From IMG/VR virus record IMGVR_UViG_3300044568_003939: a DNA stretch of 64,000 nt. One strand, given 5' to 3'. Below are positions 4,483 through 59,200 of this stretch, in pieces. The stretch's first letter is position 1. Each line of letters opens with the position of its first letter. A program made the position numbers and the translations under genes. The notes under the pieces were generated by a model that saw only the letters and a program-made list of their open reading frames with translations, was not told where the DNA came from and did no database searches. The DNA is from a virus.

Positions 4483-4490
4483 TTTATAGT

Positions 4491-35355: not shown

Positions 35356-35871
35356 ATGAATACAGCAACAAACAGACAAGATGGACATATGAAAAAACAA
35401 GCCGCGCACCGTTGGCAACAAATAAAAGAATTGTGGGACTGTGGTAAAAATGTTGAAGAAGATGTTAGCACCGATATGCATATGATGCATCAGTATTATG
35501 GAGTCAACGATGCAGTTGAAAACTTATCAGCTGATAATCTAACCAGCTTTATCAAATTCCGTTATGACTTTTTGCAAGAAGAAGTAAATGAAGGCAAGGC
35601 TGCAATCATTGAGCGCAACAGCGAAGAAATTGTTGACAGCCTGATAGATATTATTGTTGTAGCGGCTGGTACACTAGACTTGCTTCAAGTTGATTTTCAA
35701 AAAGCCTGGTTTGAAGTGCTGCAAGCAAACATGGCTAAGCGCGTTGGAATTAAAGAGAGCAGACCAAACCCACTTTCATTACCAGATTTAGTCAAACCCG
35801 AAAATTGGACCGCTCCAGATCATACAGGCAATCATGGACTTATCCAAAAAGCATTTGCTGATCACGCATGA
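35356..35871 (+). CDS. MazG-like (all-alpha) NTP pyrophosphohydrolase
   Basis: FLQEEVNE...EEIVDSLIDII, ANMAK and LPDLVKPENW motifs. Confidence 0.75.
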   Translation: MNTATNRQDGHMKKQAAHRWQQIKELWDCGKNVEEDVSTDMHMMHQYYGVNDAVENLSADNLTSFIKFRYDFLQEEVNEGKAAIIERNSEEIVDSLIDIIVVAAGTLDLLQVDFQKAWFEVLQANMAKRVGIKESRPNPLSLPDLVKPENWTAPDHTGNHGLIQKAFADHA

Positions 35872-39308: not shown

Positions 39309-39344
39309 ACTGTTTGAAAAATAAACCGCTTAATATATAATACT

Positions 39345-40049: not shown

Positions 40050-40162
40050 AGAAACAACTAAACAAGAATTGTATACTTTCCGAGGCAAAACTTTTTATAG
40101 TGATGCTCGGACTATTAAACAATTAAATTATGCACTTGCATTGAACAGATTAACTGAAAGAT

Positions 40163-45186: not shown

Positions 45187-45483
45187 ATGATTCCACTTAT
45201 CTCAGTCGCTATCACACATCACTTTAAAGAAACATCTGACGTTGAATTGCGCTTCAACCATCGGTCTAGCAATGCATACCGCACACAAGTATATGACGTA
45301 TTTGCTGATGGCGCTCTATTGATGGAGTCATTGCGCATAGCAGAAATGATTCTCGACTTTCGTAAAGAATCAGGCTGGAGCGATGATCGCATTCAAGCAG
45401 AAATGACAACCATTCTAATAGGCTATATTACAGCTGCAATGAATCGTGACGAACTATCTGATGAAACAGTAACCAATGATTAA
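45187..45483 (+). CDS. hypothetical protein
   Basis: ORF in the operon. Confidence 0.55.
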   Translation: MIPLISVAITHHFKETSDVELRFNHRSSNAYRTQVYDVFADGALLMESLRIAEMILDFRKESGWSDDRIQAEMTTILIGYITAAMNRDELSDETVTND

Positions 45484-46135: not shown

Positions 46136-46701
46136 AAAGACTGATACTATTATTTACCAACAGCTATGCACGTTCCTGTCTTTACTGGAGCATTCGTGGT
46201 TTCTTTATTCCACAGCAGCGTTGGCTTACACGAGTCATCCCGCGCACATACTGTGATAAAGTCGAATTGGTACCGCGTGTATTGTTTGCAATCCTAATTG
46301 ACTTTGTAGAGAAAGAAAAAGGATTGAGTCAACTTGACACCGATTGGAGTAAAGAACTTGCGGCTGGTCACATTACACAAGAATATATTGATGATATCCA
46401 GAAAACATATGGCGAATTGCGTGATGCCTATAATTATGTTAAACATGAACGTGATGCAATGCAAGCTGCGCATGATGACAGCTACCCAAAGATGCTTCCT
46501 GGTGTTCATGGCGTATTTGAAGAGCCAACGTTTGATGCCGCAGGAAACAAATCAAGATGTATGCGTTCATGCGAAACGCTGTATGGTATGAGTTTTGCTG
46601 AAGCATACGCTGAAACAAATCGTCTAGAATCTTTGATTGAACAGCGTGATCAAGATGCAATGACGACCATTGTGCGACATGTAAAAGTCCTTTGGACATA
46701 A
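46132..46701 (+). CDS. hypothetical protein (paralog of 50019-50357)
   Basis: ATGA-coupled; shares motifs with the 50019 ORF. Confidence 0.6.
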   Translation: MKRLILLFTNSYARSCLYWSIRGFFIPQQRWLTRVIPRTYCDKVELVPRVLFAILIDFVEKEKGLSQLDTDWSKELAAGHITQEYIDDIQKTYGELRDAYNYVKHERDAMQAAHDDSYPKMLPGVHGVFEEPTFDAAGNKSRCMRSCETLYGMSFAEAYAETNRLESLIEQRDQDAMTTIVRHVKVLWT

Positions 46702-46889
46702 ATGCTTTGATAAATAATTTTGTAGGAAATCTACAAAACAAATGGAGACTGCTATGTTAGCTGACTCTACACTCGTGTGAGACTATAGCGAAAGTTGAGT
46801 CTATACACAAAGCGGAGAAGAGTATGAAATGTGGTATGATACTCTCTCTGAAACCAAAACAAAATAAAATACCACAACCCAACAACACA

Positions 46890-47324
46890 ATGAAAAGAAT
46901 AGCAATATCCCTAGCATTGGTGCTGTCTCTGTTCAGTTGCTCGCCTGTCTCTATTGCCGAAACGGCACGTTTAGATACAATAACAGTTGTACACATAGTA
47001 AGAGCCCGCATTACATATTACTGCCCTGGACAAGATCGTTGGGGCAGCCGCGTAGCATCGCCAGCCGTTAAGGCAGCACGTCAAGGAATAACTGTAGCTG
47101 CGCATCCAGACTTTAAGTTTGGAACGCGCGTGTATATTCCTGCACTGAAGAACAAGATTGATGACGGGAAATTTACCGTTCAAGATCGTGGATCTGCTGT
47201 AACAAGCAAAAAGGCAGCGCGCGGAAAAGCATATGTGTTTGATGTATTTGTTGCATCAAACCGAGCCATAAGTCATATGTCAAAAACCACACCGGCGTGG
47301 ACTGACGTTTACATCTTAAACTGA
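46890..47324 (+). CDS. exported 3D-domain (MltA-like) peptidoglycan-active protein
   Basis: Signal peptide with LFSC; ITYY, TVAAHP..FGTRVYI, VQDRGSA and FDVFV motifs. Confidence 0.75.
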   Translation: MKRIAISLALVLSLFSCSPVSIAETARLDTITVVHIVRARITYYCPGQDRWGSRVASPAVKAARQGITVAAHPDFKFGTRVYIPALKNKIDDGKFTVQDRGSAVTSKKAARGKAYVFDVFVASNRAISHMSKTTPAWTDVYILN

Positions 47325-47355
47325 AAAATGTCTGTGGCTTAAACCACAGTCCGAA

Positions 47356-47394
47356 AAAGGCATGAAATCTCTGAAAATGGGATTTCATGCCTTT
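47356..47394 (+). terminator. terminator hairpin
   Basis: AAAGGCATGAAATC...GATTTCATGCCTTT. Confidence 0.75.
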
Positions 47395-47469
47395 ATGCTT
47401 AATCTGCTGGGCAATCCGCTGTAAAGAAGCTGCAAATCCTCTGAATTTCCGCTCAAAAATGGTCATTTG

Positions 47470-47581
47470 CGTAACTCGTTGATTTTCAATGGCCAAAAAA
47501 ATATGCATTTTTCTTCATTTTTTCCTTTACAAGTCCTGAAAAATATGGTATAATAATTCTGTAAGGAAACCATAAAATATT
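47470..47581 (+). promoter_or_regulatory. promoter cassette copy
   Basis: CGTAACTCGTTGATTTTCAA; TTTACA 47526; TATAAT 47549; GTAAGGAAACCA. Confidence 0.85.
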
Positions 47582-47674
47582 ATGCAAAACGCCGCTTTAG
47601 AACTTGCCGCAATCGCGCTCATTCTTGCAACGTTTTTTGTCTCAACGTTTTTTGCTTCTGAAACAAAACAATGA
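47582..47674 (+). CDS. 30-aa single-TM peptide (not in ORF track)
   Basis: MQNAALELAAIALILATFFVSTFFASETKQ* directly behind the cassette leader. Confidence 0.55.
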   Translation: MQNAALELAAIALILATFFVSTFFASETKQ

Positions 47675-47683
47675 ATTTTGTCC

Positions 47684-47744
47684 TTTACAAGAGCGACAAA
47701 AGTTGATACAATAACACCGTAAGGAAACCAAATAAACACACATT
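47684..47744 (+). promoter_or_regulatory. promoter cassette copy (core + leader)
   Basis: TTTACA-N17-TACAAT; GTAAGGAAACCA. Confidence 0.8.
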
Positions 47745-48134
47745 ATGATGACAAAAGTAAATGAAATGATTGACGCCCTCAATGCACAACCCAACGCCTC
47801 CGCTGGTTTTTCAGCAAAGACACTTTACCAGACCGGCCAACAATACGGCCTTACTTGTAAGGAAGTTCTGGAAACATTCCTAGGCAAAGAAAAAGCAATC
47901 TCTCGTGGCCTTTATGCCGCGACACTTGATGCTGACGTGAAGATTGTCAAGGCTGCTGCAAAGAAAGCAACAAAACCTGCTGCAAAGAAAGCAACAAAAC
48001 CTGCTGCAAAGAAAGCAGCGAAACTTGTTAAGGCTGCAAAAACTGAAGCGATCGCCAATGATTATGCTGACACTGATTTTGACGGTGTTTGCTATATTGC
48101 AACTCCTGAGGAAATCGCCGAGAGCGAACGTTGA
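47745..48134 (+). CDS. histone H1-like (PAAKK repeat) protein
   Basis: KAAAKKATKPAAKKATKPAAKKAAK; N-terminus resembles the CobS N-domain. Confidence 0.7.
   Translation: MMTKVNEMIDALNAQPNASAGFSAKTLYQTGQQYGLTCKEVLETFLGKEKAISRGLYAATLDADVKIVKAAAKKATKPAAKKATKPAAKKAAKLVKAAKTEAIANDYADTDFDGVCYIATPEEIAESER
47953..48017 (+). repeat. 24-bp tandem repeat, about 2.7 copies
   Basis: CTGCTGCAAAGAAAGCAACAAAAC repeated. Confidence 0.9.
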
Positions 48135-48285
48135 AAACACACAAATCAACAACACCAACCAACGAAAATGAGTGGAGGACACTTCCAATATCAGCACCGG
48201 CTGATGGTGATAGGGACATCCGTGATCGATGCAACCAGTTATCCAGAGAACGTCGATCGGGAGGCTCGCAGTGAAAGCTGAACCT

Positions 48286-48630
48286 ATGGAAACCACTACC
48301 ACCGGGAAACCAACGCCAGAGACCGACCAAGCCGTGCGCGAGGCATTGCCTCTCACGATTTGTTCGGCTCTTGTTGTCCACTGCAAGAAGTCTAAGCACG
48401 ACATATACATCGGAAGACCGTCCAAATGGGGAAACCCGTTCGAGATTGGGAAAGATGGCGACCGAGAAGAGGTAATTCAAAAATACTGCGAATGGGTAAT
48501 GGCTCAGCCTGATCTCATGGCCGCACTGCCTGAGTTGTGCGGGAAAGTGTTGGGATGTTGGTGCGCTCCTAAAGCGTGTCACGGCGATGTGCTTGTCTCT
48601 CTTGCAAACCCCCCGACACAAAGACAATGA
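48286..48630 (+). CDS. DUF4326-like protein
   Basis: IYIGRPSKWGNPF and GKVLGCWCAPKACHGDVL motifs. Confidence 0.85.
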   Translation: METTTTGKPTPETDQAVREALPLTICSALVVHCKKSKHDIYIGRPSKWGNPFEIGKDGDREEVIQKYCEWVMAQPDLMAALPELCGKVLGCWCAPKACHGDVLVSLANPPTQRQ

Positions 48631-48842
48631 AACTGAATCAGACTGAACTATACGCCGCACTTGACAAACTCATCGACCGCATCGAGGGATGCGGCACGTC
48701 AACCGAACTCACGAACGCCGTCGTCCTCGCCTCTGATATACGGCAGGCCGTTGGGAACGAATGGAACGTCCCGAACGAATTTGCCGCAACGCGGGTGCGA
48801 CGGATTCTTCCTGAGAACGTCGAGGTGACTCGCGACAAATGA
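48627..48842 (+). CDS. hypothetical protein
   Basis: ATGA-coupled to the DUF4326 gene. Confidence 0.55.
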   Translation: MKLNQTELYAALDKLIDRIEGCGTSTELTNAVVLASDIRQAVGNEWNVPNEFAATRVRRILPENVEVTRDK

Positions 48843-48879
48843 GCCACGAATCAACAACAGACGTTACGCATTTTTTTCC

Positions 48880-48934
48880 TTTACAAGCTTGCATAAATGG
48901 TGTATAATAATCATGTAAGGAAATAAATTACATT
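48880..48934 (+). promoter_or_regulatory. promoter cassette copy (core + leader)
   Basis: TTTACA-N17-TATAAT; GTAAGGAAA...CATT-ATG. Confidence 0.8.
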
Positions 48935-49159
48935 ATGAAAACTATTTGGAAACTATATTACCGCTTGACTCTAGGGCAATCATACGAGAAGGCCTTCAGC
49001 ACATCAAAAAATTACAACAAAATGATTCATCAGTCAACACACGCAAAACTCAATCATTTTTACAATGCCCAAGGTGAAACAATTCGTGGATGGGCCAAGC
49101 CGCAAATCAGATCTAATGATAGCCGTAATATGCATCCACTAGAAATTAAATACCGCTAA
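48935..49159 (+). CDS. small early hypothetical protein
   Basis: First ORF behind a cassette promoter. Confidence 0.6.
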   Translation: MKTIWKLYYRLTLGQSYEKAFSTSKNYNKMIHQSTHAKLNHFYNAQGETIRGWAKPQIRSNDSRNMHPLEIKYR

Positions 49160-49160
49160 A

Positions 49161-49424
49161 TTGTTAGAACCAATAATTATGAAAGGTAAATTTTTTAGAT
49201 GTGACTGCGGAAGTGAAGGTCTATGGGTGGAGTATGACGGTTATGGCAGCACTGAGTTTGCGCTGTTCCATTATAATCCACAAGAACGTTCATGGTGCAA
49301 TCGTATTAGATTAGCGTGGCAATGTCTTAAGGGCAAACCGTATACTGATATGGTATTACTCAATGATCAAAGCATTGCAGATCTCGTAGATCAATTAATC
49401 AATATTCAAAACCGTGAAGTTTGA
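49161..49424 (+). CDS. hypothetical protein
   Basis: FRCDCGSE motif. Confidence 0.55.
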   Translation: MLEPIIMKGKFFRCDCGSEGLWVEYDGYGSTEFALFHYNPQERSWCNRIRLAWQCLKGKPYTDMVLLNDQSIADLVDQLINIQNREV

Positions 49425-49584
49425 AGACATCATGGTTACAATAGTATTCTTTCTGTATGCGGCAGTGGGAATTAGTTATGTAGCACAAAAGAATTACCCA
49501 TGGGCACTCATTTGGTTTAGTTATGCAGCTGCAAACCTGGGACTCATCTGGGCGGCCAACACTAAACTTTGATATAATAAAATT

Positions 49585-49980
49585 ATGAACGCAGAAACAA
49601 GAGTATACGAAAACATGAATCAAATTCGCTACAAAAAGATTGGCAACAAATATGTGCAGGATAATGATCCTTGGGCATATGAAGGATTGCGAGAAGGTTG
49701 GTGGCTTATAAAAGTAAAACCAGGAAGTACTTCAATTCGTCAAGCAGTCTATCCTGCAAAGGCAGAGATTATGGCTGCTGTGCGTGATAAAGAAGACGCG
49801 CTTGTCGACATTATTCGTAAAGCAAGTGAAGCAAGACCTCAATCCATTCCGCTATCAGAACAGGCAAAAGCTGATTGGGATTGGTTCATGTCTCGCAATG
49901 GAAAAGAATTTAGCACCCTTGAATATCCATCTCTACAAGAAAATGCTGAGCTTATCATTGCAGCACTATTGCAAAAATAA
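49585..49980 (+). CDS. hypothetical protein
   Basis: ORF in the operon. Confidence 0.6.
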   Translation: MNAETRVYENMNQIRYKKIGNKYVQDNDPWAYEGLREGWWLIKVKPGSTSIRQAVYPAKAEIMAAVRDKEDALVDIIRKASEARPQSIPLSEQAKADWDWFMSRNGKEFSTLEYPSLQENAELIIAALLQK

Positions 49981-50018
49981 TCCTTTACAAATCACATCTA
50001 ACTTGTTATAATAACACT

Positions 50019-50357
50019 ATGAAAAACCAAACTGTCTGGAGCCGCCTCGGCCAAATGTTTAGCGCGCGTCAAACCGAAACCGATGATACGCTGCGAGAAT
50101 TGCTATTCCTCTATACTACCAGCTTTGTTGAAAGCAATGAATATTGTGATACCAACTGGCAGGCCGTTGAGAATGGCATTGCTATTAAAGACTTCTTTAG
50201 TGAAGCGTATACATATATCACACGCGACCGTCCGCTTAATGTTGATCGTTGCATTGTTGAAGAGCTGGCCGGTAACAATGTGTGGTTAAACATTCTTGAA
50301 AGCGATGACTTGCGATTTATGCAAGACATCATCCGCTTCCGCAAATTCCTATTCTAA
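50019..50357 (+). CDS. hypothetical protein
   Basis: Promoter TTTACA 49984 / TATAAT 50007, 6 nt before the ATG. Confidence 0.65.
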   Translation: MKNQTVWSRLGQMFSARQTETDDTLRELLFLYTTSFVESNEYCDTNWQAVENGIAIKDFFSEAYTYITRDRPLNVDRCIVEELAGNNVWLNILESDDLRFMQDIIRFRKFLF

Positions 50358-50363
50358 ACACAT

Positions 50364-51098
50364 ATGCAAATTAAAGTAAATGACATTCGTAAATTGCTCG
50401 CCGAACAATACCTAACTGGAAAATTCACAACCGATAAGAGCGGTGTAAAAACCGTAGAGCTCGTGGGTGCAAGTTTCATTGCTGATGAAGCACTAATCTT
50501 TGGATCTGAAAATGCTGAATATATTCAAAACGAATTGGATTGGTATCTTTCACAAAGTCTCAATGTAAATGATATCCCTGGAAAGACACCTGCCATCTGG
50601 AATGCTGTAGCTACTCCTGAAGGCTTCATCAACAGCAATTATGGTTACCTCGTGCTAAGCAAAGAGAATGGTGCACAGTATGAAAATGTACGCAATGAAT
50701 TGACCGTTAACCCTGAAAGCCGCAGAGCCGTAATGATTTACACTCGACCAACCATGCATACTGACTGGTATGCTGGTGGAATGAGCGACTTCATTTGTAC
50801 CAATGCTGTTCAGTTTCTACTTCGAGATTCGCAGCTGCATATGATTGTTCAGATGCGCAGCAATGATGTTTGGGCCGGATATAGAAATGACTATGCATGG
50901 CAAAAGTATATTCAAGGCTGCTTGGTTGAAGATCTTGTGTGCCGCACTGGCAATGCAATCAGTGCTGGCAGTATCACATGGCAAGTAGGATCACTTCATG
51001 TGTATAGCCGACAATTTTACTTACTAGATCATTATATCAAAACTGAGGGAAAAGAATTTGTTATATCTAAAGAAGATTATAACAAATTGTATGAATAA
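50364..51098 (+). CDS. 42: dCMP hydroxymethylase gp42
   Basis: Resembles T4 gp42 along its length: DKSGVKT, GASFIADE, INSNYG, SRRAVMIYTRP, GMSDFICTN, MRSND, YRNDYAWQ (cytosine-specifying Asp) and GSLHVYSR. Confidence 0.92.
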   Translation: MQIKVNDIRKLLAEQYLTGKFTTDKSGVKTVELVGASFIADEALIFGSENAEYIQNELDWYLSQSLNVNDIPGKTPAIWNAVATPEGFINSNYGYLVLSKENGAQYENVRNELTVNPESRRAVMIYTRPTMHTDWYAGGMSDFICTNAVQFLLRDSQLHMIVQMRSNDVWAGYRNDYAWQKYIQGCLVEDLVCRTGNAISAGSITWQVGSLHVYSRQFYLLDHYIKTEGKEFVISKEDYNKLYE

Positions 51099-51261
51099 AG
51101 CTGCAAATAAATTGCGAAAAAAATTATCAGATATTCATTTAGGCAAAAAGAAAACTTGGAATATTGTTCATTGTCCCTATTGTGCTAAAATCGGGCGGCG
51201 TCCAAACATGACAAGATATCATTTTAATAAATGCAAAAAAGTCCTTTACAAATCCATATAA
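51091..51261 (+). pseudogene. homing endonuclease C-terminal remnant
   Basis: RKKLSDIHLGK + CPYCAKIG..PNMTRYHFNKCK, with no nuclease domain. Confidence 0.55.
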
Positions 51262-51279
51262 ACAGTATATAATAAATTT

Positions 51280-51405
51280 ATGAAAAACAGCAACCCCAAG
51301 GTAAAGCCAAAGAAAATTCGTCGCAAGGGAATCCATGCCAAAAGCAAAACTTCTCATCTTAAGCAAAGTAAAAACTACAAGAAACTGTCACGTGGCCAAG
51401 GTTAA
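51280..51405 (+). CDS. 41-aa highly basic peptide (not in ORF track)
   Basis: MKNSNPKVKPKKIRRKGIHAKSKTSHLKQSKNYKKLSRGQG*; promoter 51245-51273 lies 6 nt upstream. Confidence 0.65.
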   Translation: MKNSNPKVKPKKIRRKGIHAKSKTSHLKQSKNYKKLSRGQG

Positions 51406-51421
51406 TCCAAACACAACTGCT

Positions 51422-51763
51422 GTGACTCCACCAGTTAAAGAAAGTATTCTGGTATTGAAAGAATGCGCCGAATTGCAAGAACGCAAGAGTCGTGACTATC
51501 AAAACCCAAACAGTCGCATTCGTCAAGCAAACTATTACCCACGCGGTGTAGCTAGCATTCTTGATATTATTCAAGCTAAGGTATTGCGAATGTATAGTGT
51601 GATTGAAGCTATGGAAAATGATCCTGAGTATCAACCCAACTTTGAGAGTATTGAAGATAGTGGTAAGGATCTAATCAACTACAGTTCATTCCTTGTAGCA
51701 TATATGCGCGGCAAAGTTGATGGTCAAGAAGCTGATCGCGATTTTCTTAACCGCCGCATCTAA
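51422..51763 (+). CDS. nucleotide-modification-associated all-alpha protein (DUF1599/Nmad-like)
   Basis: ERKSRDY...ESIEDSGKDLINYS; start uncertain (GTG 51422 or ATG 51335). Confidence 0.65.
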   Translation: MTPPVKESILVLKECAELQERKSRDYQNPNSRIRQANYYPRGVASILDIIQAKVLRMYSVIEAMENDPEYQPNFESIEDSGKDLINYSSFLVAYMRGKVDGQEADRDFLNRRI

Positions 51764-51778
51764 GCATATATACATCAT

Positions 51779-52843
51779 ATGATTTCAGACTATACAACCA
51801 CTCTTGTTGTTGACTTTGATGATACCATTGCTATTACTCACAATCGTGATTGGGTAAATGCAATGCCAAATGTTGCGCTTGTCAACAAACTCAATGCTTT
51901 ATGTGATGATGGCTGGAGCATTCATATTGTTACCGCACGAGGTCAACTCTCATGTAATGGTGATTGTGAAGCGGCCGATCTCAAGTACAGAGCACAAATT
52001 GAGAGCTGGCTAACTCAGCATGACGTAAAGTATAGCTCGCTTAGCTTCCAAAAGAAGCTTGCAGCATACTACATTGATGACAAAGGTATTACACCAGAAC
52101 AATTTGTTAAAAGCTTTGAGCGCACAAGATTGGTTGGCGGTTGGAGTGGTGACTCTGTGTATTATGATAAAGTGACAGACAGCGTCTACAAGACATCAAA
52201 AAATACACAGAGTGTTGTGCGATGGTTTGAGGCCGCGCGATGGTATGGTTATAATGTCCCAGGAGTGCATAGTGTTATTGGTGATACTATTCGTATGCAA
52301 TATTTGCATACATACAGTGGTGACATAACCGACGTGCTGGAAACCGTTCATACCTTCGCTTCTCATCCGCCTCTGCAATCTGAACCTGTTAGCGCCGATT
52401 CATATATTTCACGCTGTCGTGAACGCGTTAAGGACCTGCTGTATATTGGCGACTATAGTTTCATCTATATTCTGCTTAATGGCGCGATGTGGTATACACC
52501 AACATCCTTTAGTCATGGAGATTGCAGCATCAGTAACATTATGAGTAATGATAGTACTGGTCAAAGCATTTGTTTTATTGATCCAATCAATGACATCACA
52601 CTATATAGTTCATGGGTCATTGACATTGCCAAACTATATACTACAATTGCTTTGAACGACTCGTCTGATTCTTCACTTCAACTTATTGAAAATAGTGGAT
52701 TGGTGCCGGTCGAAGTTCTTAAGGCTCATGAGATTGGTCATCTTTGTAGAATGTATCCATATGCGAATGACAAAGAATATCTATTACAATACTTAAAAAA
52801 TAAAATCAATGCTGCCAGACAAACAATATACACAACTAGATAA
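51779..52843 (+). CDS. HAD phosphatase + APH/choline-kinase-like fusion
   Basis: N-terminal VVDFDDTI, VTARG and YYIDDK; C-terminal SHGDCSISNI, FIDP and DIAKL. Confidence 0.78.
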   Translation: MISDYTTTLVVDFDDTIAITHNRDWVNAMPNVALVNKLNALCDDGWSIHIVTARGQLSCNGDCEAADLKYRAQIESWLTQHDVKYSSLSFQKKLAAYYIDDKGITPEQFVKSFERTRLVGGWSGDSVYYDKVTDSVYKTSKNTQSVVRWFEAARWYGYNVPGVHSVIGDTIRMQYLHTYSGDITDVLETVHTFASHPPLQSEPVSADSYISRCRERVKDLLYIGDYSFIYILLNGAMWYTPTSFSHGDCSISNIMSNDSTGQSICFIDPINDITLYSSWVIDIAKLYTTIALNDSSDSSLQLIENSGLVPVEVLKAHEIGHLCRMYPYANDKEYLLQYLKNKINAARQTIYTTR

Positions 52844-52854
52844 AAACCAGAAAT

Positions 52855-53310
52855 ATGTACATTAATAAAAAAGAAATAGCAAAAAAACTAAATAAAGATG
52901 TAACCGAGGTTATAATTGGTTTCAGCTGTTCCACCTTCGATCTCTTTCATGCTGGCCACACAGTAATGCTTATGGAAGCAAAACAATTGTGTGACTATCT
53001 AATTGTAGGATTATTGGTTGATCCCACAAAGGATCGTGCTGATACAAAGAACGCACCAGTTCAAAGTGTATTTGAGCGATACCTACAAGTATCAGCATGC
53101 AAATATGTGGACGAAATTATTCCCTTTGAAACCGAAAAGGATCTGGAAGATATGATTCTTACAATCAATCCTGATGTGCGCATTGTTGGCGAGGAATACC
53201 AAGGTACCAATCACACCGGAAAAGACCTTTGCCCAATCCATTACAACAAAAGAAGACACAGTTTCTCTACAAGTGAATTGAGATCGCGCGTCATTGCAAA
53301 GAAAAATTAA
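52855..53310 (+). CDS. HIGH-motif nucleotidyltransferase (TagD/RfaE-like cytidylyltransferase)
   Basis: STFDLFHAGH, CDYLIVGL, KYVDEII and FSTSELR motifs. Confidence 0.88.
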   Translation: MYINKKEIAKKLNKDVTEVIIGFSCSTFDLFHAGHTVMLMEAKQLCDYLIVGLLVDPTKDRADTKNAPVQSVFERYLQVSACKYVDEIIPFETEKDLEDMILTINPDVRIVGEEYQGTNHTGKDLCPIHYNKRRHSFSTSELRSRVIAKKN

Positions 53311-53326
53311 CCACATATATAACTCT

Positions 53327-54346
53327 ATGAAGATACTTATTACTGGAGGCTGCGGCTTCGTCGGAACAAATCTTATTCCTAATTTGTTAGAACTAGGGCA
53401 TGATGTGATTGTAATTGACAATCTTGCGCACGGCTCATATATCCCTGAAGTGCATGATCGTGTCCGTTTTTTCAAATGCGATATTCGTGACCGTGAAGCA
53501 ATGCATTTACACATTGGCAATATCAAACCTGACATTACTTTTCACTTTGCAGGCTTGGTTAGCATTTATGATTGCCATCGTGACCCATCAAGTGCGGTTG
53601 ACAACAACATTGTTGGTAGTGTAAATGTATTTGATGCACTGCTTGCAGCCGGTTGCCCACGCGTTGTTTTCTCTGAGACGAGTGCAGTATATGAAAATTG
53701 TGAGCTGCTACAAGATGGTTATTTTGAAGGCCAAAGCGATCCTACTACAGTGTATGCAAGCACTAAAGCAGCTGTTGCATTGCTTGCTGAAAGTTATGCA
53801 CGCACCAAAGGATTGCGCTATACTGCATTGCGTTACTTTAATATTGCAGGGCCTATTCAAGACTACAAGCGCACTGTGCCTCCACTGTTTGCCGGCTTTG
53901 CTATTCGCATGATGGGAGGTAACAACCCAATCATCTTCGGCGATGGCCAACGTCGTAGGGACTTTATTCATGTTGATGACGTGAATGCTTTTCACGTTCA
54001 ATGCTTAACCGATGATCGCACTATTGGCCAAACATACAATCTTGGGCGTGGACAAAGTTGTAGCCTATTTGAAATTGGTGATGCTGTTGCAGGTGTACTT
54101 AAAGCGCGTGGATATGAAGTGCCAGATGCAGTAGAATATACCTTTATGCCGGAAATCAACGGTGAAGCATTTGAAATATTTGCGGATATTCGCAAGGCGC
54201 TCTCGCTTGGCTGGTGCCCAAAGAAAAGTATCTCAACTGCACTTGATGATACAATTGCCTATCTTGAAAAAGAAATTGAGCGAGGCGCCATTGATCCTCT
54301 AACCTACATGGTTGACTTGAATACCGACAGCGTTAAGATTGGATAA
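53327..54346 (+). CDS. NAD-dependent nucleotide-sugar epimerase/dehydratase
   Basis: ITGGCGFVG, YASTK, LRYFNI and GDGQRRRDFIHVDD motifs. Confidence 0.92.
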   Translation: MKILITGGCGFVGTNLIPNLLELGHDVIVIDNLAHGSYIPEVHDRVRFFKCDIRDREAMHLHIGNIKPDITFHFAGLVSIYDCHRDPSSAVDNNIVGSVNVFDALLAAGCPRVVFSETSAVYENCELLQDGYFEGQSDPTTVYASTKAAVALLAESYARTKGLRYTALRYFNIAGPIQDYKRTVPPLFAGFAIRMMGGNNPIIFGDGQRRRDFIHVDDVNAFHVQCLTDDRTIGQTYNLGRGQSCSLFEIGDAVAGVLKARGYEVPDAVEYTFMPEINGEAFEIFADIRKALSLGWCPKKSISTALDDTIAYLEKEIERGAIDPLTYMVDLNTDSVKIG

Positions 54347-54347
54347 T

Positions 54348-55622
54348 ATGAATGTATATGTAGGAAAGATTGGCAAGAGCATATTGTTTAATCGCAATTC
54401 ATGGGGGAATATTGGCGGTGACTGCGAAGCGCCCAAGTATTATGAAAACCTATTTGCGCGTAATCCTAGCATTACATTTTACCTGTTGGGTTGCAATGAC
54501 TTTTCACGTCTAAGCAGCAGCGAAAAGCAACGCATCAATGCGAATGGTAATGTGGTTGACATTTGGGGTAAGCAGTTTGTGGATTGGAAAAAGAACAATC
54601 CAATGGACAGTAAATTACACAATATAGAATACCTTAAAGAATATGTTGCACTCAATCATGTAAAGTTTGATGCTGGTGTTGTATTTACTGGTCCAACCGG
54701 TACTACCAACATTCCATTTAAGGTTACCAAAATGCGTAACCCTAGTGAGGTTGCAAGTCCTCTTGAAATGTTATGCAAATATGTTGCACCCATGACGGAT
54801 TGGATGAATGATAATCGCCACATCCCATACATTCTCATTGTAAATGATCCACGCTTCTGGCCTCCTAATGCACGCGATTGGATTCATATGCCAACCATTG
54901 TCTTGTCACAATATGATGAAGATACGCGTGTAACAGTTCGTAAAAACTATACAGACAATGAAACGGTAGTGCACACCATTCCCAGTACCTATAGTGCAAT
55001 GGAAACCATCTTTCTTATTGGACAAGATAAAGAAAAGCAAAGCGCCGAAACGGAAACTTCGTCGTTGGATACATTCTTTGGTGAAGACATACCAGAGCCG
55101 GCTGGTATAAAAGACATCAACTTTATGATTGTTCTCAATGAGGGGCGACCATCACGATACAACCTGTTGAAAGAAACCATTCTTAACCATGTACAAGATG
55201 TAGCAATCTATGGCAAATGGGATGAGCGTACTATTGGAACAGACTCTCGTTTTAAAGGCAGCTTACCGTTCCATGAATTGCAAAGCATGCTGCCGCGCGT
55301 AAAATATACTTATTGCATTCCTATCAAAAAAGGATGGGTCACCATGAAGTTCTGGGAGATGGCTCATTATGGAATCATACCATTCCTGCATCCAACTTAT
55401 GATGAACAAAACCATTTAAATGCTCCACAGTTCTTGCGTGTAAAGGACAGTAAAGACCTATTTGATAAGATTGCATATCTTGAAAGTAATCCAGACGCAT
55501 ATACTAAGTTGCGCGATACTCTTGATACTATGTTAAAGCCATCATACTATTCTGGTGAGCATTTGAATGATGTTACGCTAGCTGCATTGAATAAGATTAC
55601 GGGTCCCGGCAAAGTCCTATAA
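54348..55622 (+). CDS. T4 beta-glucosyltransferase-like GT-B DNA glycosyltransferase
   Basis: NDPRFWP (cf. BGT TDPRLP), FKGSLP, VTMKFWE (cf. ITLRVWE) and HPTYD; modification-cluster context. Confidence 0.7.
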   Translation: MNVYVGKIGKSILFNRNSWGNIGGDCEAPKYYENLFARNPSITFYLLGCNDFSRLSSSEKQRINANGNVVDIWGKQFVDWKKNNPMDSKLHNIEYLKEYVALNHVKFDAGVVFTGPTGTTNIPFKVTKMRNPSEVASPLEMLCKYVAPMTDWMNDNRHIPYILIVNDPRFWPPNARDWIHMPTIVLSQYDEDTRVTVRKNYTDNETVVHTIPSTYSAMETIFLIGQDKEKQSAETETSSLDTFFGEDIPEPAGIKDINFMIVLNEGRPSRYNLLKETILNHVQDVAIYGKWDERTIGTDSRFKGSLPFHELQSMLPRVKYTYCIPIKKGWVTMKFWEMAHYGIIPFLHPTYDEQNHLNAPQFLRVKDSKDLFDKIAYLESNPDAYTKLRDTLDTMLKPSYYSGEHLNDVTLAALNKITGPGKVL

Positions 55623-55630
55623 ATCAATTT

Positions 55631-56902
55631 ATGGAGAACGCACAAAAGAAATACACATACGCATCAATCGTACCGCTTATTGGCGGTGAATCACTTGGAG
55701 TCATGGAAGCACTAGATGGACAACTTCCAGAATACGTATTATCATATAGTCCCTTTGCAAGCAATGACGATCACTACATTCAATACATCCGCAACACAAA
55801 AGGATGGACTGGTGACTATATTCACCTTGACAAACAGCCTGATTATGTACCAGAATCGGTTGATGTTGTAAATTCCACCTGCCCTTGTGCTGGTTTGAGC
55901 AGCCTTAGCACTGCAAGCAGTGCAGATAGTGCAGTTAATGAATGGTTGTATACCACCGCTGAATATGTACTTGATAAAGTAGGTCCTAAAGTATTTTGGG
56001 GCGAGAATGCTCCACGTTTATACAGCAACATGGGTAAAAAAGTCGCAGACCGTTTGTTTGCTATCGGCGAAAAGTATGGGTATAGCTTAAACTTGTATTA
56101 TACTGAAAGCCGCCTTCACGGCCTGTCTCAAAAGCGCGGCCGCACATTCTACTTCTTTACTAAGAGTACATCTGCTCCGCTATTTAGTTGGTTTAATGTT
56201 CCTGGAGAACCCATTGAAAACATCTTTAATATGGCATATGCTGATGGTGATCCAATGAATATCTCTTGCAATGAAGATGATCCCAATACCAATGGTTGGG
56301 CTGCATACGCCATGCACAAGACTGGTACTAAAGATATTAAAGAACTATATGACACCCTGGATGATACACAGAATCTTATTGTCTGGGCCGACGGCGGCTT
56401 AGGTGATAATCTTACAGTTGTATCGGAATGGATGGATGCGAATGGTTATACTAAAACTGCAGGACGTGCTCGGGATATGGCCGCTAAACGTGCAAAAGGT
56501 ATGGGTTACTGGGCGCATGGCATTACTATGGTCAAAGGTATTATTCCTAGTCTGATTGGAGCATTGCCATTCTGGATGATTAATCCATTTACTCAAAGCT
56601 TTCCAACTGTACGTGACTGTCTCCGTGTTATGAAGATGCCTGAAGACTTTAATCTTGCATCATTGCACCCGCTTAAAACCAAGATTAATCACATCTGCCA
56701 AAATGTACCTGTAAGTACAGCTCGTGATATGATGCTTAATGTAGTAAAGTATCTTGATGGCGATGTTACTTGGAGTGAAAGTAACTATACCAAACAAAGC
56801 AATAAGAATAAGACGGTTGAATATCCTACACGTGTGCTGCTAAATAATTCTCATGAACTTGATGAATTTTTTAGTTTACAGAAGAAGAAAAACCTGTTAT
56901 AA
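55631..56902 (+). CDS. C5-cytosine methyltransferase-fold protein with atypical SAM motifs
   Basis: Motif IV TCPCAGLS, VI GENAP, VIII QKRGR and IX VRDCLRVMKMPEDF; motif I reads VPLIGG and motif X reads CQNVPV. Confidence 0.75.
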   Translation: MENAQKKYTYASIVPLIGGESLGVMEALDGQLPEYVLSYSPFASNDDHYIQYIRNTKGWTGDYIHLDKQPDYVPESVDVVNSTCPCAGLSSLSTASSADSAVNEWLYTTAEYVLDKVGPKVFWGENAPRLYSNMGKKVADRLFAIGEKYGYSLNLYYTESRLHGLSQKRGRTFYFFTKSTSAPLFSWFNVPGEPIENIFNMAYADGDPMNISCNEDDPNTNGWAAYAMHKTGTKDIKELYDTLDDTQNLIVWADGGLGDNLTVVSEWMDANGYTKTAGRARDMAAKRAKGMGYWAHGITMVKGIIPSLIGALPFWMINPFTQSFPTVRDCLRVMKMPEDFNLASLHPLKTKINHICQNVPVSTARDMMLNVVKYLDGDVTWSESNYTKQSNKNKTVEYPTRVLLNNSHELDEFFSLQKKKNLL

Positions 56903-56924: not shown

Positions 56925-57839
56925 ATGTCATCTGTACTAGAAAAACTAAAAAAGAATTGCCGAATTAAAGAAGCCGACGTCTTGGCTGACAGCGATTTTT
57001 ATGCTGAAAAAGACATCACCTCCACAAGTGTACCAATGGTCAATGTCGCATTAAGCGGCAGTATTGACGGTGGATTGACCAGCGGCCTTACCGTTCTTGC
57101 TGGTCCGTCAAAGCACTTTAAGACCAGCTTTGCATTGCTTATGGCAGGTGCATATCTTAAGAAACATAAAGATGCTTGCCTTATGTTTTATGATAGCGAA
57201 TTTGGTAGTCCTCAGCAATACTTCGAAAGCTTTGGTATTGACACCAACCGAGTATTGCATATTCCTATCAAGAATATTGAAGAGCTCAAGTTTGATATTG
57301 TAAATCAACTTGAGCAAATGGAGCGCAAGGACAAGGTAATTATTGTTATTGATAGTGTTGGTAACCTTGCATCCAAAAAAGAATTGGAAGATGCAATGAA
57401 TGAAAAGAGCGTTGCCGACATGACTCGTGCTAAAGCGCTTAAAGGATTGTTCCGTATGGTTACGCCATACCTTACAATGAAAAACATTTGCTTGCTTGCA
57501 ATCAACCATACCTACCTCGAGATCGGACTTTTCCCTAAGTCAATTGTTAGCGGAGGATGTGTTGCTGCTGGAACTCTTATTACTCTGCCTGATGGAACAA
57601 CCAAAGCCGTTGAAGACTTTATTGAAGGTGATACTGTTCAAACATTGGATGGGCCTAAGGAAGTTACTGCTGTCTGGAATCCTGATACTCTTGAAGACGG
57701 TGAGCCCGAATGCTATGAAGTTACCTTTGAAGACGGTCATACTGTCATTTGTAGTGATACCCATAAGTTCATGATTGGCGACCAATGGGTTGAAGCTAAA
57801 GATTTGGTGGTTGCTCAAGACTGTAAAGTATTGGTTTAA
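56925..57839 (+). CDS. uvsX: UvsX N-extein + 93-aa N-intein
   Basis: LAGPSKHFKT, YDSEFG and DSVGNLAS motifs; the extein ends IVSGG; intein CVAAGT starts at 57558; block B CSDTHKF; promoter at 56875-56903. Confidence 0.93.
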   Translation: MSSVLEKLKKNCRIKEADVLADSDFYAEKDITSTSVPMVNVALSGSIDGGLTSGLTVLAGPSKHFKTSFALLMAGAYLKKHKDACLMFYDSEFGSPQQYFESFGIDTNRVLHIPIKNIEELKFDIVNQLEQMERKDKVIIVIDSVGNLASKKELEDAMNEKSVADMTRAKALKGLFRMVTPYLTMKNICLLAINHTYLEIGLFPKSIVSGGCVAAGTLITLPDGTTKAVEDFIEGDTVQTLDGPKEVTAVWNPDTLEDGEPECYEVTFEDGHTVICSDTHKFMIGDQWVEAKDLVVAQDCKVLV

Positions 57840-57886
57840 GTTAAAATCGTCAATTGTATAAATAAGTATGTTAACCACACATACCT

Positions 57887-58576
57887 ATGACATTTAAATT
57901 GATGATAAAAACGCATAACATAACAGGTCTTAAATATCTGTGCGTCACTTCCAAAGATGACTATGAATCGTATAGCGGTTCTGGGCATTACTGGAAGTCA
58001 CACATAAAGACGCATGGCAAAGATATTTTTACTGAGTTATTAGGAACATACCAAACAAAAGAAGAATTGCGAAATGCCGCTGTTTTAGCCTCAGCTAAAT
58101 ATGATGTTGTTGAAAGTAGCGAATGGGCAAATTTAATTCCTGAAACTGGTTATGATTATGACGGCATTACCAGGAAAGGTTGGTTTGGGTGGTATGAATC
58201 TTTATCTGATGAAGAAATAGTGAATAGAAATGAAAACATTAGTTTAAAGGTAAAAGAAAGAATATCTAATACAGATCCGTCTATAATATCAGAAATGAAT
58301 AAAAAGCAACGATTAAACATGTCTGAAGAAGCTGCAAAAATTAGAAAAACAAAAATTCAAGATGTATATAATACAGGAAAGCACGATGCATTATTTAAGA
58401 GATATTCAGAAGAAAGAACTGGTGGAAATAATCCTTGTGCAAAATCAATTATGATTAACGAAATACAGTATGACTGTATTAAAGATGCCGTAAATGCTTT
58501 AAATTTAACTAGAGCCGTTATATCACGCCGAATTAAGTCCGATCATACACAATGGAGTAAATGGAATTACGTTTAA
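57887..58576 (+). mobile_element. free-standing GIY-YIG-like homing endonuclease
   Basis: IKTHNITGLKY..., YSGSGHYWKSHIKTHG and WANLIPE; C-terminal HTH-like DNA-binding module; late promoter at 57857-57864. Confidence 0.75.
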
Positions 58577-58621
58577 AAAAGACCTTTACAAACAGAAGAA
58601 AATATATTATAATATAACATA

Positions 58622-59200
58622 ATGAAAATTAAAGAAATTAAATCAATAGGGCGGCAAAAAGTATATGACCTTAGCGTTAAAGATGCTGAACACTATATTC
58701 TTAAGAATGGTGTTGTGACGCATAACACCGGCATCATGTATAGTGCGGACAATGTTTGGATTATTGGTCGCCAACAAGATAAAGATGGTACTGAAATTCA
58801 AGGCTATCACTTTGTAATCAATGTAGAAAAGAGTCGCTTTGTTAAAGAAAAAAGTAAAATTCCAATCAGTGTAAGCTGGGAAGGTGGCGTTCAAAAATGG
58901 AGCGGCCTATTGGATATTGCTATTCTTGGTGGCTATGTTCGCAAGCCAAAGAATGGTTGGTACCAAGCATGGGACATTGCAAAGGATGTTGAGTTGACTG
59001 GTAACCTGCGTGCTGCTCAAACCATGACTAAAGAATTCTGGGAGACTGTATTTAAGAATACTGACTTTGCGGAATATCTCAAAAACAAGTATACCATCGG
59101 CCTGCGCGACATGATGAATGACGTTGAAGTTGATCTTGATCGCGTTCCTGAGAGTGCAATCACCTTTGAAGAATCGCCTGATACACAAACAGATGACTGA
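58622..59200 (+). CDS. uvsX: 35-aa C-intein + UvsX C-extein
   Basis: MKIKEIKSIGRQKVYDLSV...VVTHN, then +1 Thr (58727) TGIMYSADN and EKSRFVKEK; own promoter at 58585-58613. Confidence 0.93.
   Translation: MKIKEIKSIGRQKVYDLSVKDAEHYILKNGVVTHNTGIMYSADNVWIIGRQQDKDGTEIQGYHFVINVEKSRFVKEKSKIPISVSWEGGVQKWSGLLDIAILGGYVRKPKNGWYQAWDIAKDVELTGNLRAAQTMTKEFWETVFKNTDFAEYLKNKYTIGLRDMMNDVEVDLDRVPESAITFEESPDTQTDD

What the first reader, a model, noticed from the sequence alone, without database searches (positions are those of the whole stretch)
50364..56902. Candidate new DNA hypermodification pathway: hmC synthesis, its own nucleotide-sugar pathway and a BGT-like transferase
Seen: a contiguous cluster of gp42-type dCMP hydroxymethylase (RND Asp retained), a DUF1599-like all-alpha protein, a HAD phosphatase/kinase fusion, a HIGH-motif nucleotidyltransferase, an SDR epimerase, a beta-glucosyltransferase-like GT-B enzyme and a C5-MTase-fold protein. 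Known: T4 glucosylates hmC using host UDP-glucose and needs no sugar genes; kinase + phosphatase + nucleotidyltransferase + epimerase is the same enzyme logic as ADP-heptose synthesis (HldE/GmhB/HldD). Inference: the phage makes a non-glucose activated donor (an NDP-pentose/heptose or a CDP-alditol) and attaches it to hmC, giving a possibly undescribed base for restriction/CRISPR evasion.
Basis: partly seen in the sequence, partly recalled or inferred. Interest (0 to 1): 0.88.

Follow-up and report, generated by a model that had tools for sequence, protein, structure and literature searches.

The report
Phage hydroxymethylcytosine sugar-tagging gene cluster
An uncultured T4-like phage carries a tight operon that should replace cytosine with hydroxymethylcytosine, make its own activated sugar (most likely a heptose or an epimer of one) and attach it to its DNA; the core three-enzyme sugar module was already shown in a 2023 preprint to heptosylate hydroxymethylcytosine, so this is a new variant, not a new kind.

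Summary
Seven co-oriented, nearly abutting genes lie at 50364-56902, in the slot where T4 has gene 42, beta-gt and uvsX.

- **Genes:** a true gp42-type dCMP hydroxymethylase, a DUF1599 protein, a HAD-phosphatase/APH-like-kinase fusion, a cytidylyltransferase-fold nucleotidyltransferase, a GalE-like SDR, a GT-B transferase whose nearest solved structure is T4 beta-glucosyltransferase, and a C5-methyltransferase-like protein.
- **Prior art:** the claim of a new pathway is only partly right. Pyle et al. (bioRxiv 10.1101/2023.12.21.572611) showed that a phage [quoted passage not shown] trio makes mono- and di-heptosyl-5hmC in E. coli. I found a TET-linked contig of that architecture whose three proteins are clear homologues of the window's (63%, 37% and 29% identity).
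- **Distribution:** the fusion-plus-nucleotidyltransferase pair occurs in at least 80 IMG/VR loci, usually with this GT, the MTase-like gene and a gp42-type enzyme.
- **What is particular here:** pre-replicative hmC supply, an SDR inserted between nucleotidyltransferase and GT (9 of 80 loci), and the unexplained, catalytically intact MTase-like partner.
- **Still open:** the sugar's identity is inferred, not shown.

Earlier notes of this scan reported related clusters on other DNA. Verdict: new variant of a known kind, interest about 0.5.

The parts
35356..35871 (+). PRA-PH/MazG-like NTP pyrophosphohydrolase directly after the DNA polymerase gene. It is a candidate dCTPase, the functional analogue of T4 gp56. 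It lies outside the cluster and its role is inferred.
   Evidence: Pfam PF01503 E 7.3e-7, 30 bits against a cut-off of 21.3. The same position after DNA polymerase is seen in related contigs L017 and L103. The DNA polymerase at 32783-35344 was identified.
50364..51098 (+). gp42-type dCMP hydroxymethylase, which makes 5-hydroxymethyl-dCMP before replication.
   Evidence: PDB 1B49/1B5E E 1.8e-82 over the full length. Catalytic Cys is kept in FICTN. The E. coli ThyA D169 equivalent is kept as Asp, unlike the D169N 5-hydroxy-dCMP synthase of a Mosigvirus, and the N177 equivalent is Asp (criterion from PMC13326640).
51335..51763 (+). DUF1599 ('nucleotide modification associated domain 1') protein of unknown function. 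The conserved core starts near residue 30-35, with a possible GTG start at 51422.
   Evidence: 7 of 8 family members match PF07659, best E 2.4e-7. It sits next to the TS gene in relatives. No link to MazG-type enzymes was detectable.
51779..52843 (+). Bifunctional sugar-phosphate enzyme: an N-terminal HAD phosphatase (AfhF/1XPJ type) fused to a C-terminal choline-kinase/APH-fold kinase.
   Evidence: TIGR01689 E 3.4e-16. PDB 1XPJ E 1e-17 and 9IQW E 1.7e-16. AF2 model pLDDT 92.6, with Foldseek hits to ethanolamine/choline kinases, APH and fructosamine kinases. Invariant in 56 homologues: D12, D14, D15, T52, D100/D101 in the HAD part, and K138, H246-G-D248, N253, I267-D-P269 in the kinase part. 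37% identity (E 5e-64) to the fusion in TET-linked contig L080.
52855..53310 (+). Cytidylyltransferase-fold (HIGH-motif) nucleotidyltransferase, expected to make the NDP-sugar from sugar-1-phosphate.
   Evidence: PF01467 E 5.6e-15. Best NCBIfam match is TIGR02199, HldE domain II heptose-1-P adenylyltransferase, E 8.3e-18. phrog_7878 E 7.5e-30. PDB ECT 3ELB E 6.7e-21 and TagD 1COZ E 6.7e-16. 63% identity to the L080 enzyme. It follows the fusion gene in 80 of 80 loci.
53327..54346 (+). Extended SDR, GalE-like NDP-sugar epimerase (the ORF is open from a TTG at 53294), expected to tailor the NDP-sugar.
   Evidence: PF01370 E 5.7e-50. GGCGFVG and YASTK motifs are present. Nearest PDB is GalE 4ZRM, E 1.5e-41. 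Scores are below the ortholog cut-offs for GalE (141 against 262 bits) and for HldD (97 against 275 bits). It lies inside the cluster in only 9 of 80 loci. A 64% identical copy lies elsewhere in a 156-kb related contig.
54348..55622 (+). GT-B glycosyltransferase, the predicted DNA hmC glycosyltransferase, in the positional slot of T4 beta-gt.
   Evidence: AF2 model pLDDT 92.5. The top solved matches are four T4 BGT entries, Z 21.3-21.8, against 19.1 for the next. Foldseek top hit is 1QKJ, E 1.6e-8. 29% identity (E 8e-49) to the 429-aa GT of L080. More than 400 metagenomic homologues.
55631..56902 (+). C5-cytosine-methyltransferase-like protein of unknown role, a conserved right-hand neighbour of the GT.
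   Evidence: PF00145 E 4.7e-11. Invariant in 28 homologues: PLIGG (motif I), PC (IV), ENAP (VI), QxRxR (VIII) and QN (X). Present in 57 of 80 loci.

Best explanation
The cluster is a two-stage cytosine hypermodification system of a T4-like phage.

**Stage 1, before replication**
- The gp42-type enzyme converts dCMP to 5-hydroxymethyl-dCMP.
- A MazG-like pyrophosphatase next to the polymerase gene probably depletes dCTP.
- hmC is therefore incorporated in place of C.

**Stage 2, sugar supply and transfer**
- The APH-fold kinase domain phosphorylates C1 of a host sugar phosphate. The most likely substrate is D-glycero-D-manno-heptose 7-phosphate.
- The fused HAD domain removes the distal phosphate.
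- The cytidylyltransferase-fold enzyme makes the NDP-sugar.
- The SDR epimerises it.
- The BGT-like GT-B enzyme transfers the sugar to the hydroxymethyl group of hmC in DNA.
- The result is heptosyl-hmC, or an epimer or oligomer of it, which blocks restriction and CRISPR nucleases.

**Shown here:** gene identities, folds, catalytic residues, conserved linkage, and homology to a TET-linked module of the published architecture.

**Inferred:** the substrate, the nucleotide, the epimerised position, the acceptor, full replacement of C, and any role of the DUF1599 and MTase-like proteins.
For: - **hmC synthesis:** gp42 identity and the diagnostic residues, judged by the criterion in PMC13326640.
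- **Genomic slot:** the same as T4 42/beta-gt/uvsX and the RB69-type arabinosylation cluster.
- **Kinase-phosphatase fusion:** both active sites are invariant.
- **Nucleotidyltransferase:** best matches are HldE domain II and phrog_7878 'heptose'.
- **Transferase:** nearest solved structure is T4 BGT.
- **Experimental precedent:** the contig 53 HAD/APH fusion, CTP-transferase and GT-B were all required for 5-HepmC and di-HepmC in E. coli.
- **Homology to that type of cluster:** L080 has Tet_JBP, fusion, CTP-transferase and a 429-aa GT, with 37%, 63% and 29% identity to the window's proteins.
- **Conserved linkage:** fusion plus nucleotidyltransferase in 80 of 80 loci, GT in 54, MTase-like in 57, TS in 42.
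- **Conserved order:** the full seven-gene order recurs at about 55% identity.
Against: - No chemistry exists for this phage. The sugar is inferred from a homologous module expressed in E. coli, and I could not prove that L080 is the published contig 53.
- The window's GT is closer (50% identity) to GTs that sit beside an AfhE-like NTP_transferase-kinase than to the L080 GT (29%). The donor may therefore differ.
- No phage GmhA or SIS isomerase was found in related contigs, so heptose 7-phosphate must come from the host. The host is unknown.
- A cultured Clostridia phage carries a similar module, and LPS heptose is not expected in such a host.
- The SDR is not an HldD ortholog.
- No dNMP kinase was sought, and a catalytically intact C5-MTase-like gene is odd if C is fully replaced.
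Confidence: 0.5

Rival explanations
1. Same architecture, but the sugar is a pentose. By the Afh logic (sugar 5-phosphate to 1,5-bisphosphate to 1-phosphate to NDP-pentose) the donor would be, for example, arabinofuranose or ribofuranose. The SDR would interconvert pentose epimers, giving pentosyl-hmC.
For: - The HAD domain is homologous to RB69 gp51 and to 9IQW, deposited as a capsule biosynthesis protein; that 9IQW is the phage HY126 AfhF phosphatase is my guess from its accession number next to the HY126 entries.
- Its kinase fold class is that reported for the AfhE C-terminal domain.
- GTs 50% identical to the window's sit beside HAD plus AfhE-like NTP_transferase-kinase genes in L007-L011 and in Pseudoalteromonas phage XG4.
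- 5-methylthioribose kinase, which acts on C1 of a furanose, is among the structural matches.
Against: - The window's kinase gives no BLAST match to the AfhE-like proteins, but 37% identity to the TET-linked fusion.
- Its nucleotidyltransferase has a different fold from AfhE's and best matches heptose-1-P adenylyltransferase.
- The published product of this exact trio type is heptose.
- All known arabinosyl systems use D169N 5-hydroxy-dCMP synthases, and this enzyme keeps Asp.
Confidence: 0.22
2. Kennedy-type pathway. The choline-kinase-like domain and the cytidylyltransferase make a CDP-activated alcohol (CDP-glycerol, CDP-ribitol, CDP-ethanolamine or CDP-choline), and a phospho-alcohol is attached to hmC.
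For: The nearest solved relatives of the nucleotidyltransferase are ethanolamine-phosphate and glycerol-3-phosphate cytidylyltransferases. Those of the kinase are ethanolamine and choline kinases.
Against: - The transferase is a GT-B glycosyltransferase closest to T4 BGT, not a LicD- or TagF-type phosphotransferase.
- A fused, catalytically intact phosphatase has no place in a Kennedy pathway.
- An NDP-sugar epimerase is present.
- The homologous trio gave heptose adducts.
Confidence: 0.05
3. The sugar genes are an auxiliary metabolic or surface-glycan module acting on host LPS, capsule or a phage protein. The DNA carries only hmC, or hmC with host-derived glucose.
For: - A 64% identical SDR stands alone, far from the cluster, in a related 156-kb contig.
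- The HAD domain matches a 'capsule biosynthesis phosphatase' model.
- Generic GT4 enzymes score only about 2.7 Z units below T4 BGT.
Against: - The genes are wedged between the hydroxymethylase and uvsX, in the slot used for DNA glycosylation in T4 and RB69.
- The GT co-occurs with a gp42-type TS or with Tet_JBP.
- The homologous GT type acts on DNA.
Confidence: 0.06

Closest known systems
'Contig 53' subclass III biosynthetic gene cluster of Pyle, Lund, O'Toole and Saleh (bioRxiv 10.1101/2023.12.21.572611), which gives 5-heptosyl- and di-heptosyl-hydroxymethylcytosine
   Same: The same three-enzyme module: HAD-like/APH-like bifunctional enzyme, cytidylyltransferase, and a GT-B DNA glycosyltransferase resembling T4 bGT. 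A TET-linked contig of that architecture, with a 429-aa GT as for GT53, is homologous to the window's three proteins.
   Different: - There, hmC is made after replication by C5-MT plus TET at MT-defined sites. Here a gp42-type enzyme makes hm-dCMP before replication.
- The window adds an SDR epimerase between nucleotidyltransferase and GT, and a DUF1599 gene.
- It keeps an MTase-like gene, but I found no Tet_JBP gene in the cluster by Pfam; the rest of the window was not searched for that family.
- The GT is only 29% identical.
- The stereochemistry and nucleotide of the published heptose donor are not defined.
Afh / RB69-DLP3 arabinosyl-5-hydroxycytosine pathway (PMC13326640; He et al. and Mahler et al. 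as cited there)
   Same: The same genomic slot next to uvsX, a homologous HAD phosphatase, the same kinase fold class, and the same logic (sugar phosphate to bisphosphate to 1-phosphate to NDP-sugar to GT-B acting on DNA).
   Different: - That base is 5-hydroxycytosine, made by a flavin-dependent D169N TS homologue. Here Asp is kept and the enzyme is 56% identical to T4 gp42.
- In Afh the kinase is fused to an NTP_transferase-fold enzyme. Here it is fused to the phosphatase, and the nucleotidyltransferase has the cytidylyltransferase fold.
- No arabinose-5-phosphate isomerase was found.
- The SDR is an extra step.
T4 glucosyl-hmC system (gp56, gp42, gp1, alpha-gt, beta-gt)
   Same: gp42 ortholog. 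The GT's best structural match is T4 BGT, and it occupies the beta-gt position between gene 42 and uvsX. A MazG-type pyrophosphatase candidate is present.
   Different: - T4 uses host UDP-glucose and has no sugar-activation genes.
- The GT shows no significant sequence similarity to BGT (hhalign probability 1.6%).
- T4 has no MTase-like or DUF1599 partner.
Bacterial ADP-L-glycero-beta-D-manno-heptose pathway (GmhA, HldE, GmhB, HldD)
   Same: The step order kinase, phosphatase, cytidylyltransferase-fold nucleotidyltransferase, SDR epimerase. The nucleotidyltransferase best matches HldE domain II.
   Different: - The kinase has the APH/choline-kinase fold, not the PfkB fold, and is fused to the phosphatase rather than to the nucleotidyltransferase.
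- The SDR is GalE-like, not an HldD ortholog.
- No GmhA was found.

Membership tests
T4 gp42-type dCMP hydroxymethylase (TS superfamily) | Full-length similarity to T4 gp42, with the catalytic Cys and Asp at the ThyA N177 position (cytosine specificity) | tested here: met
   PDB 1B49/1B5E E 1.8e-82, residues 5-241 against 8-243. FICTN and RNDYAW are conserved.
5-hydroxy-dCMP synthase (RB69 gp48 / DLP3 gp80 type) | Asn at the position of E. coli ThyA Asp169 (D169N), given as diagnostic in PMC13326640 | tested here: not met
   The window has MRSND (Asp). The Mosigvirus enzyme aligned alongside has MRSQN. Identity to it is only 21%. Criterion.
Contig-53-type heptosyl-5hmC module (Pyle et al. 2023) | HAD-like/APH-like bifunctional enzyme, followed by a cytidylyltransferase and a GT-B DNA glycosyltransferase with T4-bGT-like architecture | tested here: met
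   Domain content. Homology to a Tet_JBP-linked trio, L080, with E 5e-64, 3e-62 and 8e-49.
Contig-53-type heptosyl-5hmC module (Pyle et al. 2023) | The product is heptosyl-5hmC in DNA | not testable with these tools
   This needs LC-MS of nucleosides.
Contig-53-type heptosyl-5hmC module (Pyle et al. 2023) | hmC supplied after replication by C5-MT plus 5mYOX/TET | tested here: not met
   No Tet_JBP match among the cluster's proteins. hmC supply is by a gp42-type enzyme. An MT-like gene is present.
Afh arabinosylation pathway (AfhE/AfhF) | AfhF-type HAD phosphatase | tested here: met
   PDB 9IQW E 1.7e-16 and 1XPJ E 1e-17. 38% identity to the Mosigvirus gp51 homologue.
Afh arabinosylation pathway (AfhE/AfhF) | AfhE-type bifunctional NTP_transferase-fold pyrophosphorylase plus kinase | tested here: not met
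   The window has no NTP_transferase (PF00483) protein in the cluster and no BLAST match to AfhE-like proteins. Relatives L007-L011 and L001 do have one.
CAZy GT63 (T4 beta-glucosyltransferase family) | Sequence similarity to T4 BGT | tested here: not met
   hhalign of the 60-sequence profile against T4 BGT: probability 1.6%, E 0.031. No BLAST hit. Only the fold is closest to BGT.
HldD (ADP-L-glycero-D-manno-heptose 6-epimerase) | Score above the equivalog cut-off of TIGR02197 | tested here: not met
   96.7 bits against a cut-off of 274.6. GalE TIGR01179 scores higher (141.3 bits) but is also below its cut-off of 262.3.
DNA C5-cytosine methyltransferase | Conserved motifs I, IV (PC), VI (ENV), VIII (QxRxR) and X (GN) | tested here: inconclusive
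   PC, ENAP and QxRxR are invariant. Motif I is PLIGG instead of FxGxGG, and motif X is QN instead of GN, both invariant in 28 sequences. SAM binding and the substrate were not tested. No solved relative was found by sequence.

The most novel reading that the evidence does not exclude
In this clade the SDR turns the phage-made NDP-heptose (or other NDP-sugar) into an epimer that has not been described on DNA. In addition, the always-adjacent C5-MTase-like enzyme, with its catalytic Cys, ENV Glu and QxRxR invariant but motifs I and X altered, performs a further, undescribed reaction on cytosine-derived bases, rather than being a plain methylase or a relic of MT/TET-type clusters.
Probability: 0.2. 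Interest if true: 0.75.

Novelty: new variant of a known kind. Interest (0 to 1): 0.5.

Why it matters
- **Defence evasion:** sugar-coated cytosines decide which restriction, type IV and CRISPR defences a phage escapes or triggers.
- **Abundance:** the heptosyl-hmC-type module, known so far from a reconstituted metagenomic fragment with TET-made hmC, is the standard partner of gp42-type pre-replicative hmC synthesis in a large group of uncultured T4-like phages. Whole-genome heptosylation, or a related glycosylation, may therefore be common in nature.
- **Two concrete open questions:** what the in-cluster SDR does to the donor sugar, and why a catalytically intact C5-methyltransferase look-alike is kept next to the glycosyltransferase in genomes expected to lack unmodified cytosine.
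- **A testable system:** a cultured Agathobaculum phage with a similar module offers a direct test.

Tried and rejected
- **Near-identical DNA in cultured phages:** none.
- **T4 BGT by sequence:** no BLAST hit and hhalign probability 1.6%. Only the fold is closest to BGT.
- **DUF1599 protein as a MazG/gp56-like dCTPase:** no support. hhalign against a MazZ-like neighbour gave probability 0.2%, and a PDB profile search gave nothing below E 0.1. I therefore do not assign it that role. The PRA-PH protein at 35356-35871 is the better dCTPase candidate.
- **Phage-encoded sugar-phosphate isomerase:** SIS (PF01380) and SIS_2/GmhA (PF13580) gave no match in ten related records, including the complete genome of Pseudoalteromonas phage XG4. 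No BLAST hit to an RB69-type arabinose-5-phosphate isomerase in the window. These contigs are fragments, so absence is not proven.
- **GT with MTase-like protein (complex prediction):** no answer, score 0.00 in both runs. This is not evidence either way.
- **Upstream ORFs 45476-50357:** nothing pathway-related (Metallophos, DUF4326, otherwise no hits).
- **Cyanophage S-TIM5 context of its MTase-like homologue:** not informative.
- **Matching L080 to the published contig 53 by sequence or identifier:** not possible. The supplement holds no sequences.
only partly borne out. The variant motifs are invariant across the family, and an acidic residue aligned with the Glu of E. coli Dcm after the second strand is kept in the 9-sequence alignment.

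Full report
**1. What is there**

The window is part of an uncultured T4-like phage.
- Its DNA polymerase is at most 47% identical to that of any deposited phage. The nearest are 'Phage C48C1' and marine cyanomyoviruses.
- No whole genome is held for the window.
- Between 50364 and 56902 there are seven + strand ORFs. They are separated by 8-22 bases or overlap, apart from a 237-base gap after the first gene. That gap holds a 56-codon Cys-rich ORF.
- Directly downstream lies uvsX, here split by an intein and a homing endonuclease.
- In T4 this slot holds gene 42, beta-gt, segA and uvsX. In RB69-like Mosigvirus it holds the arabinosylation genes. The cluster therefore sits in the known DNA-modification slot of T4-like genomes.

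**2. The base**

- The first protein aligns over its whole length with the solved T4 dCMP hydroxymethylase (E 1.8e-82, about 56% identity).
- A 2026 paper shows that RB69-type homologues make 5-hydroxy-dCMP rather than 5-hydroxymethyl-dCMP. It gives Asn at the E. coli ThyA Asp169 position as their signature (PMC13326640).
- In my alignment the Mosigvirus enzyme reads MRSQN. The window's enzyme and all its metagenomic relatives read MRSND, and all keep Asp at the N177 position.
- The enzyme is therefore of the gp42 type.
- A PRA-PH/MazG-like pyrophosphatase directly after the polymerase gene (35356-35871) is a candidate dCTPase. It sits in the same place in relatives.
- The DUF1599 protein next to the hydroxymethylase is a real family member. 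I could not connect it to any enzyme class.

**3. The sugar module**

| Gene | Finding |
|---|---|
| 51779 | Fusion of a HAD phosphatase and a kinase. AF2 model pLDDT 92.6. All catalytic residues of both halves are invariant in 56 homologues. |
| 51779, HAD half | Matches PDB 1XPJ and 9IQW at E about 1e-17. 38% identical to the Mosigvirus gp51 homologue. |
| 51779, kinase half | Matches ethanolamine and choline kinases, aminoglycoside phosphotransferases and fructosamine kinases. |
| 52855 | Cytidylyltransferase fold. Best family matches are HldE domain II (heptose-1-phosphate adenylyltransferase) and a PHROG annotated likewise. Nearest solved relatives are ethanolamine-phosphate and glycerol-3-phosphate cytidylyltransferases. 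|
| 53327 | Extended SDR with intact GxxGxxG and YxxxK. GalE-like, but below the ortholog thresholds of both GalE and HldD. |
| 54348 | GT-B fold, AF2 model pLDDT 92.5. The four best solved matches are all T4 beta-glucosyltransferase (Z 21.3-21.8, rmsd 3.4-3.8 A over about 315 residues). Generic GT4 enzymes follow at 19.1, T4 alpha-glucosyltransferase at 17.7 and the phage HY126 glycosyltransferase at 16.6. At sequence level there is no significant similarity to BGT. |

**4. Prior art**

I read that preprint.
- All three were needed in E. coli to turn 5hmC into mono-heptosyl (449 u) and di-heptosyl (641 u) products.
- That is the window's 51779, 52855 and 54348 trio.

To test homology rather than resemblance, I searched IMG/VR with a profile of the fusion protein.
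- Contig L080 carries Tet_JBP, a 335-aa fusion, a 150-aa cytidylyltransferase and a 429-aa GT. The supplement lists 429 aa as the length of GT53.
- These proteins are 37% (E 5e-64), 63% (E 3e-62) and 29% (E 8e-49) identical to the window's.
- I cannot prove that L080 is contig 53, but the window's module belongs to that family.
- The second body of prior art is the Afh pathway for UDP-arabinofuranose in RB69, DLP3 and HY126. It uses the same phosphatase family and kinase fold in a different fusion arrangement.

**5. Distribution**

| Feature in the 80 best IMG/VR loci carrying the fusion | Loci |
|---|---|
| Cytidylyltransferase gene follows the fusion | 80 |
| This GT family | 54 |
| MTase-like gene | 57 |
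| gp42-type TS | 42 |
| DUF1599 | 33 |
| SDR inside the cluster | 9 |

- Many of these loci are cut by contig ends, so the counts are lower bounds.
- The 9 loci with an in-cluster SDR are the window's own clade. Contigs whose fusion protein is about 55% identical keep the same seven-gene order, and L103 keeps it with one extra 470-aa gene.
- In a 156-kb marine contig with the SDR-less cluster, a 64% identical SDR lies about 110 kb away. The SDR may therefore belong to the system more widely.
- A second set of relatives (L007-L011, and the cultured Pseudoalteromonas phage XG4) has a 36-50% identical GT, the same MTase-like gene and a gp42-type TS. Its donor pathway differs: a free-standing HAD plus an NTP_transferase-kinase fusion of AfhE type. 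The sugar-activation genes are thus swappable around a constant TS/GT/MTase-like frame.
- No SIS or GmhA isomerase was found in the related records. The first sugar phosphate must come from the host.

**6. The MTase-like protein**

- In 28 homologues down to 33% identity, PLIGG (motif I), PC (IV), ENAP (VI), QxRxR (VIII) and QN (X) are invariant. This is a selected, probably active enzyme of the C5-methyltransferase mechanism, not a decaying gene.
- In MT/TET-type clusters a C5-MT supplies the 5mC that TET oxidises. Here I found no TET gene in the cluster, and C5 should already be substituted. Its role is therefore unexplained.
- A structure-prediction test for binding to the GT gave no answer.

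**7. Reading**

- **Most likely (about 0.5 for heptose specifically; I put the generic statement of a phage-activated sugar on hmC at about 0.85):** host heptose 7-phosphate is converted to the 1,7-bisphosphate by the kinase domain and to the 1-phosphate by the HAD domain. The nucleotidyltransferase then makes NDP-heptose, the SDR makes an epimer, and the GT transfers it to hmC-DNA.
- **Main rival:** a pentose, by Afh logic.
- **Unlikely:** a CDP-alcohol pathway, or a non-DNA target. The reasons are given under the rival explanations.

**8. Verdict**

This is a new variant of a known kind: pre-replicative hmC, a contig-53-type module, an in-cluster SDR and an MTase-like partner.
- Other notes of this scan have reported related clusters on other DNA.

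Noticed in passing
window 56925-59200: uvsX is split. The N-terminal part (56925-57839) ends in a Hint/intein N segment. A homing-endonuclease-like ORF follows (57887-58576, with an I-TevI-type DNA-binding domain). Then comes a C-terminal part that starts with an intein C segment plus the T4_UVSX_C domain (58622-59200).
   Followed up: partly
window 38124-43445: A possible RNA-repair group: RtcB ligase (38124-39308), a cyclic-phosphate-processing receiver domain protein (40698-41147), an NIF-like phosphatase (42030-42584) and peptidyl-tRNA hydrolase PTH2 (42571-42990).
   Followed up: no
window 51091-51261: A 56-codon Cys-rich ORF (HCPYC...C) fills the only sizeable gap of the cluster, between the hydroxymethylase and the DUF1599 gene. 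It has no family match.
   Followed up: partly
L104 (Agathobaculum phage AB434P2, OP172633.1) 1314-4500: A cultured siphophage of a Clostridia host has the HAD-kinase fusion, a 151-aa ORF, a 328-aa GT and a TS homologue annotated as deoxyuridylate hydroxymethyltransferase in one row. It is a culturable system for testing this module, possibly on hmU rather than hmC.
   Followed up: partly
L016 2678-9800 and L018 8001-16848: The fusion-plus-cytidylyltransferase pair also occurs in other contexts. In L016 it lies with a UDP-galactopyranose-mutase-like gene and a 292-aa TS. In L018 it lies with an Acb3-like protein, an AGT-like protein and GT25/GT10 glycosyltransferases.
   Followed up: no
L001 (Pseudoalteromonas phage vB_Psh_XG4, PP712099.1) 100-6580: This unannotated cultured phage carries a gp42-type TS, a HAD, an AfhE-like NTP_transferase-kinase, two GT-like genes and the MTase-like gene in a row. 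That is hmC combined with an Afh-type donor pathway, a combination I did not find described.
   Followed up: partly
window 48229-48630: A DUF4326 protein (E 1.4e-28) lies upstream of the cluster. Its function is unknown.
   Followed up: no
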